From a virus, in the IMG/VR virus record IMGVR_UViG_3300030320_000049: 64,000 nucleotides of DNA; one strand, given 5' to 3'. The translations under genes and the position numbers were made by a program. Under the pieces are notes generated by a model, which did not search any database, was not told where the DNA came from, and saw only the letters and a list, made by a program, of their open reading frames with translations. Numbering within the stretch: position 1 is the stretch's first letter; the number at the start of each line of letters is the position of its first letter. This document shows, piece by piece, positions 46,436-46,640 of this stretch.

Positions 46436-46525
46436 TTGCCCCGACAGGATTTGAACCTATAAAATTGTTTGCAGTAAAGAACACAGACATGTTCCGTCGG
46501 TTTTCCGTAACCGATAACCGGGGCA
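46436..46525 (-). ncRNA. non-canonical tRNA-like RNA (about 90 nt)
   Basis: Acceptor UGCCCCG/CGGGGCA and T arm AUAGG-UUCAAAU-CCUGU. D-like hairpin UCGG(UUACGGAAAA)CCGA. Hairpin GGAACA/UGUUCU has a 6-8 nt loop instead of a normal anticodon loop. Confidence 0.55.
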
Positions 46526-46526
46526 G

Positions 46527-46640
46527 TGACGAGGGATGGATTCGAACCACCAACCTATGCCTTGTAATGGAGTAAATTGCTATTATAGTCACAAACATGA
46601 CTAATATTCTCATCGCTCTGTCCAATTGAGCTACCTCGTC
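46527..46640 (-). ncRNA. tRNA-like RNA (114 nt) with a roughly 47-nt irregular helix replacing the anticodon arm
   Basis: GACGAGG UA GCUC AAUUGGACA GAGC G [AUGAG...UAGUCA-UGUUUG-UGACUA...CUC(C)AU] ...GGUGG UUCGAAU CCAUC CCUCGUC A. Confidence 0.6.

What the first reader, a model, noticed from the sequence alone, without database searches (positions are those of the whole stretch)
46436..46640. Two abutting tRNA-shaped RNAs whose anticodon arms are replaced, sharing the apical motif CAUGUYUGUG
What is tRNA-like:
- Both minus-strand elements have perfect 7-bp acceptor stems and consensus T arms (UUCGAAU / UUCAAAU loops).
- They are separated by 1 nt, as in tRNA arrays.
- The 114-nt RNA also has a canonical D arm with GG.

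What is not:
- The 114-nt RNA carries a roughly 47-nt irregular helix at the anticodon position. It has an outer AUGAG/CUC(C)AU stem with a bulged C, an internal loop, and an apical UAGUCA/UGACUA stem.
- The 90-nt RNA has a GGAACA/UGUUCU hairpin with a 6-8 nt loop and a 17-nt unpaired 'variable' segment.
- Neither can display a normal 7-nt anticodon loop.

Their apical loops are 9/10 identical: CAUGUCUGUG versus CAUGUUUGUG (plus-strand 46482..46491 and 46590..46599). That points to a shared, selected ligand site.

Inference, with three possibilities:
- Y-RNA-like scaffolds for the neighbouring TROVE-like protein.
- Decoys for anticodon-loop nucleases.
- Analogues of the T4 species 1/2 stable RNAs.
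Basis: partly seen in the sequence, partly recalled or inferred. Interest (0 to 1): 0.8.

Follow-up and report, generated by a model that had tools for sequence, protein, structure and literature searches.

The report
tRNA-shaped partner RNAs of phage Ro60-like protein
The two odd tRNA-shaped RNAs are real, conserved genes that belong to a four-member array of "Y-RNA-like" RNAs. They sit upstream of a phage protein with the fold of the Ro60 RNA-quality-control protein, and all four carry a shared motif (a helix followed by ACAGCAA) that recurs beside this protein family in very different phages.

Summary
Both elements exist as described and are under selection.

- **Element A (46640..46527, minus strand)** is a full tRNA body with acceptor, D arm, T arm and a covarying 15:48 pair. 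A 40-nt module interrupts the 5' strand of its anticodon stem.
- **Element B (46525..46436)** is a more degenerate tRNA scaffold.
- **Shared part.** It is more than the 10-mer. It is a hairpin capped by a UGNNNG hexaloop, then 2-3 nt, then ACAGCAA (AUAGCAA in A, ACUGCAA in B).
- **Two more copies.** Simple forms of the same module lie between B and the next gene (units C and D).
- **The gene.** ORF 46283..44832 hits Pfam DUF2828, DUF7788 and VWA_2. Its predicted structure matches only Ro60/TROVE structures.
- **Distribution.** A terminal stem followed by ACAGCAA flanks homologues of this gene in ten unrelated phages: 21 units on the gene strand, 0 on the other, 0.5 expected.
- **Forms.** Some units contain a permuted tRNA mimic, as in bacterial YrlA Y RNAs. 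A and B are the unpermuted form.

Best reading: these are ligand/scaffold RNAs of a phage Ro60-like protein, a new variant of the Ro60–Y RNA system. Binding and function are inferred, not shown.

The parts
46527..46640 (-). Element A: 114-nt tRNA-bodied RNA with a 40-nt module (46610..46571) inserted between tRNA positions 29 and 30
   Evidence: Rfam tRNA 48.7 bits. Covariance model R1 104.6 bits. Covariation on 48 distinct relatives. The 15:48 pair covaries.
46587..46602 (-).
   Evidence: 100% of cells paired and 5 of 5 pairs covary. Hexaloop consensus.
46577..46583 (-). A: motif AUAGCAA (ACAGCAA in nearly all relatives), 3 nt after helix H
   Evidence: AGCAA is invariant and AC nearly invariant in 39 close homologues. 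Exact ACAGCAA in 39 of 50 A-type RNAs.
46557..46570 (-). A: CC-AUUACAA-GGCAU, the 3' part of a split anticodon stem plus a 7-nt anticodon-like loop; the partner AUG lies at 46613..46611
   Evidence: Threading gives 5 of 5 pairs in each of the distinct variants tabulated but one (L009, 4 of 5). Helices 3 and 5 covary.
46436..46525 (-). Element B: 90-nt degenerate tRNA scaffold with acceptor, a 6-7-bp D-like hairpin, helix H, the motif and a T arm
   Evidence: RNAfold z = -3.2. 25 distinct homologues with compensatory changes in the D-like hairpin.
46469..46495 (-). B: helix H hairpin GGAACA-UGUCUG-UGUUCU (46495..46478), then UU and ACUGCAA (46475..46469)
   Evidence: The L070-type relatives have ACAGCAA at this position.
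46373..46431 (-). Unit C: simple Y-like unit, GUGGUGCUU-ACAGCAAU-...-AAGCAUCAU (terminal stem followed by the motif)
   Evidence: Conserved in related contigs with G-U/A-U changes in the stem.
46299..46362 (-). Unit D: GGGACAC-UU-ACAGCAAC-...-GUGUCCU; its 3' strand abuts the Shine-Dalgarno sequence (46297..46291) of the Ro60-like gene
   Evidence: Sub-threshold Rfam hit to Dictyostelium Class I RNA at 26 bits.
44832..46283 (-). Ro60-like protein, 483 aa (Pfam DUF2828 + DUF7788 + VWA_2; PHROG 850 'RNA-binding protein')
   Evidence: AlphaFold model pLDDT 94.7. The top 9 Foldseek PDB hits are all Ro60/TROVE. D293, S295, S297, T358 and D390 are invariant in the alignment; I read them as a MIDAS site.
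40267..41469 (-). RtcB RNA ligase gene on the same strand, 3.4 kb downstream
   Evidence: Pfam RtcB E = 4e-64.
46700..46771 (-). Ordinary tRNA-Met(CAU) just upstream of A; further tRNAs at 47134..47062 (Met), 47419..47347 (Gln) and 44771..44700 (anticodon UCA)

Best explanation
A and B are two of four tandem non-coding RNAs (A, B, C, D) that serve as the RNA partners of the phage's Ro60-like protein, encoded immediately downstream. This is the same relationship that Y RNAs have with Ro60.

**The common module.** Each RNA carries a short helix ('helix H'), usually containing GAC/GUC. The 3' end of one strand runs, after 0-3 nt, into single-stranded ACAGCAA. I infer that this module is the protein's binding site.

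**How the forms differ.**
- In units C and D, as in most phages, helix H is the terminal stem joining the 5' and 3' ends.
- In A and B, helix H is capped by a UGNNNG hexaloop and the module is grafted onto a tRNA body. It sits in the 5' strand of the anticodon stem in A and in place of the anticodon arm in B.
- A and B therefore have tRNA-type ends. They should be cut out of the tRNA-array transcript by RNase P and the 3'-end tRNA-processing nucleases, and then receive CCA.

**Relation to YrlA.** A and B are circular permutations of the YrlA-type units seen in other phages. In those, the ends lie in helix H and the acceptor stem is capped.

**Proposed role.** The tRNA body, which in A still displays an anticodon-like loop, would act as the effector end. 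It would tether the Ro60-like protein to proteins that recognise tRNA, or gate its access to them. This would take place in the context of tRNA damage, repair and anti-defence (RtcB, tRNA arrays). Unit D, abutting the Shine-Dalgarno sequence, may also let the protein repress its own translation.

**Shown:** the RNA structures, their covariation, motif conservation, co-location with the gene family and the protein fold.
**Inferred:** binding, processing and every functional step.
For: **Protein**
- Pfam DUF2828 + DUF7788 + VWA_2.
- The AlphaFold model (pLDDT 94.7, pTM 0.93) matches only Ro60/TROVE structures at the top: 9kop, 9l5y, 1yvr, 2i91, 2nvo, 9nfa and 9nep, with E from 2e-6 to 2e-4 and TM 0.43-0.61.

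**Module beside the gene in unrelated phages**
- Salmonella Meda x4, Mycobacterium Rumpelstiltskin x3, Listeria LP-124 x3, Bacillus PJN02 x4-5, Staphylococcus 6ec x3, Campylobacter Los1 x2, Fusobacterium FNU2, Enterococcus VRE9_3, Vibrio nt-1 (6-bp stem) and Synechococcus B3 (variant CAGCAA).
- Strict count: 21 units on the gene strand against 0 on the other strand in 70 kb. Shuffles give a mean of 0.5 and a maximum of 3.
- In the 64-kb window the strict pattern occurs only at units C and D.
- All six homologues tested hit DUF2828 + DUF7788.

**tRNA mimicry inside units**
- T arm, capped acceptor and D arm occur inside units in Meda, Rumpelstiltskin, PJN02, L162 and L186.
- Rfam's YrlA model gives a partial hit on the Rumpelstiltskin unit.

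**A-type family**
- 50 members, often 2-4 in tandem upstream of the gene, including cyanophage B3, where GenBank annotates it as a pseudo-tRNA.
- Strong covariation. The 15:48 pair is A:U in 23, G:C in 15 and A:C in 5.

**Literature**
- The Ro60-like gp130 of the Felixounavirus Bas63 lies upstream of its tRNA genes and counters the Ppl defence system (PMC11482910).
- In Listeria phage CKA15, three very abundant unannotated RNAs lie within 2 kb upstream of the gene whose best HHpred match is Rsr (PMC12282133).
- Ro60 (Rsr), YrlA and RtcB form one operon in Salmonella (PMC7790460; PMC4201824).
Against: - No binding or expression data exist for this phage.
- Bas63 gp130 protects T7 from Ppl when expressed alone, so at least that activity does not need the phage RNAs (PMC11482910).
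- The protein does not hit Pfam TROVE, and its profile finds no Ro60 chain by sequence. Homology rests on fold.
- The canonical Ro60-binding motif of YrlA (GNCGAAN0-1G) is absent, and Rfam's YrlA model does not hit A or B.
- The motif in A (AUAGCAA) and in B (ACUGCAA) each differs from the consensus by one base.
- A helix (P2) that would neatly set the module off from the tRNA is only subfamily-specific: mean longest run 3.9 bp against 3.35 bp for shuffles.
- The covariation alignment was fitted to my model.
Confidence: 0.7

Rival explanations
1. A-type RNAs are interrupted tRNA genes. The 40-nt module is an intron-like insert that is excised, and the halves are rejoined by the phage RtcB ligase to give working tRNAs (tRNA-Val(UAC) in this window). 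The Ro60-like protein would act as a cofactor.
For: - Removing the insert restores a perfect 5-bp anticodon stem and a 7-nt loop with U33 and A37-A38: AUGCC-AUUACAA-GGCAU here, CGGGU-CUGUUAA-ACCCG in L196 and ACGGC-AUUCGGA-GCCGU in phage B3.
- RtcB is encoded 3.4 kb away.
- The tRNA tertiary pair 15:48 is kept.
- None of the ten related loci scanned has an ordinary tRNA-Val.
Against: - The same module occurs in RNAs with no tRNA to restore: units C and D, B, and the stand-alone and permuted units in other phages.
- Many A-type relatives have loops of 1-24 nt or lack U33 (AAUCCAA).
- Bodies with Ser or Leu 'anticodons' (GCU, GGA, GAG) have 5-nt variable loops. Bacterial tRNA-Ser and tRNA-Leu need long variable arms, so they cannot be those tRNAs (plus established tRNA knowledge).
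- No bulge-helix-bulge motif is visible at the junctions, and Rfam reports no group I intron.
- No splicing endonuclease was recognised nearby.
- In some relatives an ordinary tRNA-Tyr occupies A's slot.
Confidence: 0.07
2. A and B act on their own as decoys or baits for host enzymes that recognise tRNA, such as anticodon nucleases, modification enzymes or synthetases. The Ro60-like protein would not be their functional partner.
For: - The tRNA body is intact and A-type loops often look like anticodon loops (A/C-U-N-N-N-A-A).
- They sit in tRNA arrays close to an RNA repair ligase.
- Phage tRNA arrays are known counter-measures to tRNA-cleaving defence systems (discussed in PMC11482910 and PMC7824862).
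Against: - This does not explain why the invariant part is the non-tRNA module.
- It does not explain why that module also occurs without any tRNA body.
- It does not explain why the module tracks the DUF2828 gene and its strand across phyla.
- The idea is compatible with the best explanation as a description of what the effector end does.
Confidence: 0.1
3. The array is mainly a cis-acting leader of the Ro60-like mRNA, providing processing signals and an autoregulatory operator. A and B would be only processing punctuation, with no function in trans.
For: - All four units lie directly upstream of the ORF on the same strand, with no terminator-like site between them.
- Unit D's 3' strand ends two nucleotides before the Shine-Dalgarno sequence.
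- In Vibrio phage nt-1 the unit's stem covers the start codon.
Against: - In Salmonella Meda, Staphylococcus 6ec and Mycobacterium Rumpelstiltskin the units lie downstream of the gene or are scattered among tRNAs.
- Arrays of up to five tRNA-bodied units (four A-type plus B in L070) are more than an operator needs.
- The corresponding region of Listeria phage CKA15 yields very abundant discrete RNAs (PMC12282133).
Confidence: 0.1
4. They are decaying tRNA pseudogenes, and the shared 10-mer is a chance similarity.
For: ARAGORN misses both. GenBank annotates the cyanophage B3 counterpart as a pseudo-tRNA.
Against: - Compensatory changes occur in every helix, including the non-tRNA hairpin.
- The motif is conserved across 48 distinct sequences and across phyla.
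Confidence: 0.02

Closest known systems
Bacterial and phage YrlA Y RNAs bound by Ro60/Rsr (Rfam RF02553; Chen et al. 2014, PMC4201824)
   Same: - Non-coding RNAs encoded next to, and on the same strand as, a ring-shaped Ro60-fold protein with a vWA domain.
- Modular build: a protein-binding helix/motif plus a tRNA mimic with D arm, T arm, acceptor stem and a covarying 15:48 pair.
- Often several different RNAs per locus (YrlA plus YrlB).
- Genomic link to RtcB.
   Different: - The protein belongs to Pfam DUF2828 + DUF7788, not TROVE, and is related to Ro60 only at fold level.
- The conserved motif is helix + ACAGCAA rather than GNCGAAN0-1G.
- A and B have the normal tRNA strand order with free acceptor ends and a capped protein-binding helix, the reverse of YrlA.
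- A keeps an anticodon-like stem-loop.
- Rfam's YrlA model does not detect them.
Dictyostelium Class I RNAs (Rfam RF01414; PMC7919456)
   Same: - About 60 nt long.
- A 6-bp stem joins the 5' and 3' ends.
- A conserved single-stranded CCUUACAGCAA lies immediately 3' of the 5' stem strand, and the rest is variable.
- This is the architecture and motif of units C and D and of the stand-alone units in other phages.
- It is the only other non-tRNA Rfam family that hits these units: 26, 24.9 and 23.1 bits, all full-length model matches.
   Different: - All scores are below the gathering threshold of 41.5 bits.
- Class I RNAs are reported only from Dictyostelia and are transcribed from their own DUSE promoters.
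- Their only shown direct binder is an RRM protein (CIBP/Rnp1A).
- I could not establish whether Dictyostelium has a DUF2828 protein.
Intron-containing tRNAs (archaeal bulge-helix-bulge introns at non-canonical positions; bacterial group I introns in anticodon loops)
   Same: An insert within the anticodon arm of an otherwise complete cloverleaf. An RtcB-type ligase is encoded in the same genome.
   Different: - There is no bulge-helix-bulge motif and no group I intron signature.
- The insert is itself the most conserved part.
- The insert also exists outside tRNAs.
- Many relatives could not yield a functional tRNA.
Phage T4 species 1 and 2 stable RNAs (rnaC, rnaD)
   Same: Stable small RNAs of unknown function, encoded at the end of a phage tRNA cluster. 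Species 1 has a T-arm-like element.
   Different: They have no ACAGCAA module. No T4 record appears among the listed DUF2828 hits; that T4 has no such gene is my inference.

Membership tests
tRNA (Rfam RF00005) | Score at or above the curated gathering threshold (29 bits) | tested here: inconclusive
   A scores 48.7 bits over the full model, but only by skipping 51 nt. B has no hit even at E <= 10.
tRNA (Rfam RF00005) | Uninterrupted 5-bp anticodon stem with a 7-nt loop | tested here: not met
   A's stem is split by a 40-nt insert between positions 29 and 30. B has no anticodon loop. ARAGORN rejects both.
tRNA (Rfam RF00005) | Conserved tertiary nucleotides (U8, A14, G18-G19, T loop) and a covarying 15:48 pair | tested here: met
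   For the A type: U8 in 42 of 43 sequences, A14 and a UUCGA T loop in all 43, and 15:48 as A:U 23, G:C 15, A:C 5. G18-G19 are invariant in the close-homologue alignment. B keeps GG and a UUCAAAU T loop only.
tRNA (Rfam RF00005) | Aminoacylation and decoding | not testable with these tools
   Indirect evidence is against it: relatives with Ser or Leu 'anticodons' have class I bodies.
YrlA / bacterial Y RNA (Rfam RF02553) | Encoded beside, and on the same strand as, a Ro60-type protein | tested here: met
   A to D lie 16 to 357 nt upstream of the ORF. The Ro60 fold is shown.
YrlA / bacterial Y RNA (Rfam RF02553) | tRNA-like domain with strand order T arm, capped acceptor, D arm, and the RNA ends in the protein-binding stem | tested here: not met
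   A and B have the order D arm, module, T arm, with open acceptor ends. The permuted order does occur in units of Meda, Rumpelstiltskin, PJN02, L162 and L186.
YrlA / bacterial Y RNA (Rfam RF02553) | GNCGAAN0-1G motif near the 5' end | tested here: not met
   By my reading of the sequences, the motif is absent from A to D. The conserved motif is ACAGCAA.
YrlA / bacterial Y RNA (Rfam RF02553) | Rfam gathering score (69 bits) | tested here: not met
   No YrlA hit at E <= 10 in 44500..47600. Only a 21.4-bit partial hit in Rumpelstiltskin.
YrlA / bacterial Y RNA (Rfam RF02553) | Physical binding to the Ro60-type protein | not testable with these tools
   Needs co-immunoprecipitation or a gel-shift assay.
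Ro60 / TROVE proteins (for ORF 46283..44832) | Pfam TROVE (PF05731) sequence signature | tested here: not met
   Only DUF2828, DUF7788 and VWA_2 are hit. No Ro60 chain is found by sequence or by profile.
Ro60 / TROVE proteins (for ORF 46283..44832) | Alpha-helical repeat (TROVE) domain followed by a vWA domain with a MIDAS site | tested here: met
   The top 9 Foldseek hits are all Ro60/TROVE, TM 0.43-0.61. D293, S295, S297, T358 and D390 are invariant; I read these as MIDAS residues.
DUF2828-associated 'helix + ACAGCAA' RNAs (class proposed here) | Helix strand followed within 0-3 nt by ACAGCAA, on the strand of an adjacent DUF2828 gene | tested here: met
   C and D match exactly. A has AUAGCAA and B has ACUGCAA, with ACAGCAA in their relatives.
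Dictyostelium Class I RNA (Rfam RF01414) | Gathering score (41.5 bits) | tested here: not met
   Unit D scores 26 bits. The phage units in L088 and L083 score 24.9 and 23.1 bits.
Dictyostelium Class I RNA (Rfam RF01414) | DUSE promoter about 60 nt upstream; dictyostelid origin | not tested
   The source is a Lachnospiraceae phage. I did not look for a DUSE element.
Intron-containing tRNA | Recognisable splice signal (bulge-helix-bulge, or a group I intron core) | tested here: not met
   Inspection of the junctions shows no 3-nt bulges flanking a 4-bp helix. Rfam reports no intron family.

The most novel reading that the evidence does not exclude
The 'terminal helix + UUACAGCAA' module is the cognate RNA ligand of the whole DUF2828 branch of the Ro60/TROVE superfamily, which also has eukaryotic members. 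On this reading, the enigmatic Class I RNAs of Dictyostelium (6-bp terminal stem + CCUUACAGCAA, about 60 nt, developmental phenotype, function unknown) would be the eukaryotic counterparts of these phage RNAs. They would be Y RNAs of a so far unrecognised Ro-like protein, possibly the uncharacterised pull-down partner DDB_G0281243. The phage A-type RNAs would be the same ligand fused to a processable, CCA-bearing tRNA body.
Probability: 0.15. Interest if true: 0.85.

Novelty: new variant of a known kind. Interest (0 to 1): 0.7.

Why it matters
**Breadth.** Ro60-like DUF2828 proteins occur in 701 of 50,697 GenBank phage records. These include well-studied groups: Felixounavirus, Listeria P100-like phages, Staphylococcus 6ec, Campylobacter phages, Vibrio nt-1 and related large vibriophages, and cluster L mycobacteriophages.

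**What two recent papers lacked.** Two papers guessed that Y RNAs must lie near these genes but could not point to them (PMC11482910, PMC12282133). The helix + ACAGCAA signature gives a concrete, searchable definition of those RNAs.

**What it explains.**
- Why some 'pseudo-tRNAs' and unannotated abundant transcripts sit in phage tRNA arrays.
- That one ligand is used in three topologies: simple, permuted tRNA mimic and unpermuted tRNA graft.

**What it makes testable.**
- The unpermuted form should be cut out by the tRNA-processing enzymes RNase P and RNase Z and given CCA. That would make it the first Y-type RNA matured entirely by the tRNA pathway, and a handle for asking what the tRNA end recruits.
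- One family member counters a defence system, and another was detected in purified virions (PMC12282133). The RNAs are therefore candidates for regulators or cofactors of an anti-defence or RNA-repair particle.
- The resemblance to Dictyostelium Class I RNAs offers a testable lead on a twenty-year-old orphan RNA class.

Tried and rejected
- **Standard detectors.** ARAGORN finds neither element. In Rfam, only tRNA hits A. There is no YrlA, ribozyme, intron or other family, and the weak Class I hit on unit D is below threshold.
- **Sequence-level link to Ro60.** phmmer and a 61-sequence profile against PDB chains found only a vWA protein. Fold comparison was needed.
- **A general helix P2 setting off the module.** It is present in some subfamilies at 5-8 bp. 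Family-wide it is barely above shuffles (3.9 against 3.35 bp), so I dropped it as a defining feature.
Comparison favours AUG pairing with the distal CAU.
- **Single-sequence folding of A.** The result was ambiguous, with the MFE and centroid structures differing.
- **Promoter and terminator scan of 44500..48000.** No more promoter-like sites than in shuffles, and no terminator inside the array. It did not define the transcription unit.
- **T4 species 1/2 RNAs.** They lack the module.
- **TGA recoding as a reason for the UCA tRNA.** Long ORFs gain almost nothing when TGA is read through.
- **A random IMG/VR sample matching ACAGCAA-N(8-38)-GGTTCGA.** Only 6 of 120 loci had a DUF2828 hit in the stored stretch, and the covariance model found few insert-bearing RNAs among 100 of them. 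I judge most matches to be chance hits to ordinary tRNAs. The sample is useful for examples only, not for frequencies.
- **Literature.** Searches for the motif string return only primers and siRNAs. DUF2828, UCP015417 and DDB_G0281243 give nothing relevant. The supplement of Chen et al. 2014 is not held, so I cannot say whether any DUF2828 phage was among their 22. Avesson et al. 2011 appears in the reference list without a PMC id, and I did not try to fetch it.
- **PHROGs for nine neighbouring small ORFs.** No hits.
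Full report
**1. What is at the coordinates**

A has these parts, 5' to 3':
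- acceptor 5' strand GACGAGG, then UA
- D arm GCUC-AAUUGGACA-GAGC, then G26
- AUG, then a 40-nt insert, then CC
- loop AUUACAA, then GGCAU
- variable loop AGGUU
- T arm GGUGG-UUCGAAU-CCAUC
- acceptor 3' strand CCUCGUC, then discriminator A

Detector results:
- ARAGORN reports four ordinary tRNAs in the window: 44771..44700 (anticodon UCA), 46771..46700 (Met), 47134..47062 (Met) and 47419..47347 (Gln). It reports neither A nor B.
- Rfam's tRNA model matches A end to end at 48.7 bits by skipping 51 nt at the anticodon arm.
- B has no Rfam hit, and no other curated family matches either element.
- RNAfold folds B exactly as acceptor / 6-bp D-like hairpin / GGAACAU-GUCU-GUGUUCU hairpin / 17 unpaired nt / T arm, with z = -3.2. 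The single-sequence fold of A is ambiguous.
- CATGTYTGTG occurs exactly only at the two reported places in the window.

**2. Are they selected?**

The downstream ORF (46283..44832, 483 aa) retrieved 80 related viral contigs with 86-100% protein identity.
- A homologues are present in 71 of them and B homologues in 58. Some contigs have only one of the two. In L043 an ordinary tRNA-Tyr occupies A's slot.
- 39 distinct A sequences, down to about 70% identity, show compensatory changes in the acceptor stem, T arm and apical hairpin.
- Prophage relatives in Lachnospiraceae genomes, for example Diplocloster hominis CSJ-3, gave more divergent loci at 61-86% protein identity. These identify the host lineage.

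I built a covariance model from 16 sequences using my structure. It finds 50 A-type RNAs of 103-130 nt at E < 1e-8, often 2-4 in tandem just upstream of the gene. On that alignment:

| Measure | Value |
|---|---|
| Cells forming standard pairs | 97.8% |
| Pairs with changes on both sides | 23 of 26 |
| Covariation score | 0.72 |
| Shuffled control | 0.18 (0 of 500 reach the observed value) |
| Partners slid by 1-3 columns | at most 0.12 |

The caveat is that the alignment was fitted to the model.

The tRNA tertiary pair 15:48 also covaries: A:U in 23, G:C in 15, A:C in 5 and never G:U. B has less variation, but it shows A-U to G-C and U-A to C-G swaps in its D-like hairpin.

**3. Correcting the anatomy**

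Comparison shows that A's anticodon stem is split, not replaced.
- Positions 27-29 (AUG) pair with the distal CAU (41-43).
- CC, directly after the insert, pairs with GG.
- Together they close a 7-nt loop, AUUACAA.
- The same arrangement appears as GUA^CC/GGUAC, AUG^CC/GGCAU, ACG^GC/GCCGU (cyanophage B3) and CG^GGU/ACCCG (L196). Both half-helices covary.

So the statement that A cannot show a normal anticodon loop is wrong.

Across the family the loop is most often A/C-U-N-N-N-A-A: AUUACAA, AUGAUAA, AUGGUAA, CUUUUAA, CUUCUAA, AUUCGGA. However:
- It is deleted or lengthened in many members.
- Some members lack U33.
- Bodies whose 'anticodon' would read Ser or Leu have short variable loops.

These are therefore not working tRNAs.

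In other relatives the module replaces the anticodon loop of a tRNA body with a long variable arm, a class II-type body (L217 1204-1334). B is a further reduced version.

**4. The shared module**

The conserved core of the insert has three parts:
- a hairpin, which I call helix H. It is 100% paired in the 48 sequences, and all five pairs covary.
- a cap, the hexaloop UGNNNG (UGUUUG 12 times; UGUCUG, UGUCCG and UGUCAG 4 times each).
- 2-3 linker nucleotides, then ACAGCAA (exact in 39 of 50).

The window's A has AUAGCAA and B has ACUGCAA. In the more distant B relatives the loop is longer, and only CAUG...GUG is kept.

The motif occurs twice more between B and the ORF:
- Unit C, 46431..46373: GUGGUGCUU-ACAGCAAU-...-AAGCAUCAU.
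- Unit D, 46362..46299: GGGACAC-UU-ACAGCAAC-...-GUGUCCU. Its 3' strand ends two nucleotides before the Shine-Dalgarno sequence.

In C and D the strand preceding the motif pairs with a downstream partner, so helix H joins the two ends of a ~60-nt RNA. Under a strict definition these are the only two hits in the 64-kb window on either strand. The definition is a stem of at least 7 bp with at most one G-U pair, a gap of 0-2 nt, ACAGCAA, and the partner strand within 125 nt.

**5. The neighbouring protein**

- Pfam: DUF2828 + DUF7788 + VWA_2.
- PHROGs: family 850, 'RNA-binding protein'.
- Sequence and profile searches of PDB chains find no Ro60.
- An AlphaFold model built on 61 diverse homologues has pLDDT 94.7 and pTM 0.93.
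- The nine best Foldseek matches in the PDB are all Ro60/TROVE structures: Xenopus Ro, D. radiodurans Rsr, Thermus phage phiLo Ro60 and human Ro60 complexes. E runs from 2e-6 to 2e-4, probability is 1.00 and TM is 0.43-0.61. Isolated vWA domains follow at E >= 0.01.
- D293, S295, S297, T358 and D390 are invariant in the alignment. I read them as a MIDAS site.
- RtcB lies 3.4 kb downstream on the same strand.

**6. Does the module travel with the protein?**

tblastn finds full-length homologues at 30-40% identity in 701 GenBank phage records. I inspected ten from unrelated groups. In each, units of 'terminal stem + 0-2 nt + ACAGCAA + 30-110 nt + partner strand' lie on the gene's strand beside the gene.

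| Phage | Units | Position relative to the gene |
|---|---|---|
| Salmonella Meda | 4 | among the tRNAs downstream |
| Mycobacterium Rumpelstiltskin | 3 | in the 369-nt gap downstream |
| Listeria LP-124 | 3 | in the 395-nt gap upstream; RtcB nearby |
| Bacillus PJN02 | 4-5 | upstream |
| Staphylococcus 6ec | 3 | downstream |
| Campylobacter Los1 | 2 | upstream |
| Fusobacterium FNU2 | 1 | upstream |
| Enterococcus VRE9_3 | 1 | upstream |
| Vibrio nt-1 | 1 | 6-bp stem that includes the start codon |
| Synechococcus B3 | 1 | variant motif CAGCAA, plus an A-type RNA that GenBank annotates as a pseudo-tRNA |

Sources.

- The strict count is 21 units on the gene strand and 0 on the other strand in 70.4 kb. 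Two hundred dinucleotide shuffles give a mean of 0.5 and a maximum of 3.
- All six homologues tested are DUF2828 + DUF7788, and none hits TROVE.
- The stems share a loose GAC/GUC core (AAGACAC, UAGACNC, UGGACNC, GGGACAC). A's helix H (UGACU/AGUCA) has it too.

**7. Three topologies of one ligand**

- **Simple.** Most units are ~60-nt RNAs.
- **Permuted tRNA mimic.** In Meda (unit 4), Rumpelstiltskin (unit 2), PJN02 (unit at 767) and the metagenomic loci L162 and L186, the variable region holds a T arm, a capped acceptor hairpin and a D arm. This is the permuted tRNA mimic that defines YrlA (PMC4201824). Rfam's YrlA model gives a partial 21-bit hit on the Rumpelstiltskin unit.
- **Unpermuted tRNA graft.** A and B have the same parts with the chain break moved. 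Helix H is capped and the acceptor stem is open.

The predicted consequence is inferred, not shown. A and B, which sit in a tRNA array one nucleotide apart and have no encoded CCA, should be released by RNase P and the 3'-end tRNA-processing nucleases and receive CCA. [quoted passage not shown]

**8. Function**

What is known for relatives:
- Ro60 binds Y RNAs. These gate its cavity or tether it to effectors such as PNPase. rsr, yrlA/B and rtcBA form one operon induced by tRNA damage (PMC4201824, PMC7790460).
- In the Felixounavirus Bas63, the Ro60-like gp130, located directly upstream of the tRNA genes, is needed against the Ppl defence system. It also protects T7 when expressed alone (PMC11482910).
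- In Listeria phage CKA15, the protein whose best HHpred match is Rsr was detected in purified virions. Three very abundant unannotated RNAs are made within 2 kb upstream of its gene (PMC12282133). This matches the position of the three LP-124 units; the match is my inference.

From this I commit to the following reading, at confidence about 0.7 for the partnership and lower for the downstream roles:
- A to D are the protein's cognate RNAs, bound through helix H + ACAGCAA.
- The tRNA bodies of A and B are effector ends that connect the particle to tRNA-recognising factors during tRNA damage, repair or defence.
- Unit D may also mediate translational autoregulation.

The gp130-alone result shows that at least one activity of the protein does not need these RNAs. 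They may therefore be regulators rather than obligatory cofactors.

**9. Rivals**

- **Interrupted tRNA spliced with the help of RtcB.** This is attractive for A alone. It fails on B, C and D, on the stand-alone and permuted units, on the drifted loops, on the mismatch between tRNA body class and 'anticodon', and on the absence of splice signals.
- **Free-standing decoy.** This does not explain why the non-tRNA module is the invariant part, or why it tracks the gene.
- **Pure cis-leader.** In several phages the units are downstream of the gene or scattered among tRNAs.
- **Pseudogenes.** Covariation excludes this.

**10. Comparison with known systems, and novelty**

This works like the Ro60-Y RNA system, and some relatives look like YrlA. 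A and B nevertheless fail three defining features of the YrlA family: strand order, the GNCGAA motif and the Rfam score. The protein fails the TROVE sequence signature.

I therefore file it as a new variant of a known kind:
- a DUF2828-branch Ro-like protein
- its own RNA motif
- an unpermuted tRNA-graft form of the RNA

Two recent papers suspected Y RNAs near these genes without identifying them. In the library available to me I found no description of the ACAGCAA module.

**11. A lead worth following**

Rfam's Dictyostelium Class I RNA model is the only non-tRNA family that repeatedly hits the simple units:
- window unit D, 26 bits
- Fusobacterium phage unit, 24.9 bits
- Listeria phage unit, 23.1 bits

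All three are full-length model matches, and all are below the 41.5-bit threshold.

Class I RNAs are ~60-nt RNAs with a 6-bp terminal stem followed directly by CCUUACAGCAA (PMC7919456). That is the same architecture and a nine-base identity with units C and D. One of their four pull-down partners, DDB_G0281243, has no known function (bioRxiv 10.1101/2020.04.05.026054).

I could not determine whether it, or any dictyostelid protein, belongs to DUF2828. This remains a hypothesis, at a probability of about 0.15.

Noticed in passing
window 44700..44771 (-): A 72-nt tRNA with anticodon UCA lies 60 nt downstream of the Ro60-like gene. ARAGORN calls it SeC; Rfam tRNA scores 56.4 bits. It is too short for a true tRNA-Sec, so it looks like a UGA suppressor. 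Long ORFs gain almost nothing if TGA is read through, so there is no sign of genome-wide recoding. In relatives this slot holds tRNA-Ser(GCU) or tRNA-Tyr.
   Followed up: partly
L083 965..1516 (Listeria phage LP-124): A ROOL-like large RNA (87.4 bits, below the 99.1-bit threshold, full-length model match) lies between two tRNAs, about 1 kb upstream of the three ACAGCAA units and the DUF2828 gene. RtcB is 1.3 kb downstream.
   Followed up: no
L070 601..674, L072 933..1006, L107 2881..2957: ARAGORN reports tRNAs with four-base anticodons (acca, tagc) in the tRNA arrays next to DUF2828 genes. They could be frameshift-suppressor-like tRNAs, or further tRNA-like RNAs that were mis-called.
   Followed up: no
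window 46299..46362 (-); L088 2885..2940; L083 2160..2215: The simple units repeatedly give sub-threshold, full-length matches to Rfam's Dictyostelium Class I RNA model (26, 24.9 and 23.1 bits). They share with it a terminal stem followed by UUACAGCAA.
   Followed up: partly
Literature on homologues (Listeria phage CKA15_055; Pectobacterium phage CBB, hit H59): The Ro60-like protein was detected by mass spectrometry in purified CKA15 virions (20 peptides, 57% coverage; PMC12282133). In phage CBB the homologue is annotated 'structural protein'. The protein, perhaps with RNA, may therefore be packaged and delivered with the DNA.
   Followed up: no
L070 2793..3465; L212 304..864; L214 762..1367; L074 2925..3366: Some Lachnospiraceae prophages and gut phages carry three to five tRNA-bodied module RNAs head to tail, with different acceptor stems and different anticodon-like loops. 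This suggests diversification of the effector end.
   Followed up: partly
window 46829..46853 (-): A 7-bp hairpin, AUCUACA-GCACUAAAACU-UGUAGAU, lies upstream of tRNA-Met and contains ACAGCAC. This is one mismatch from the motif, but part of it is paired. It does not fit the unit definition.
   Followed up: no
window 40267..41469 (-) and 38504..40249 (-): The RtcB gene sits directly upstream of a 581-aa ORF that I take to be the large terminase (not checked). The RNA-repair gene is thus placed at the boundary with the structural module.
   Followed up: no
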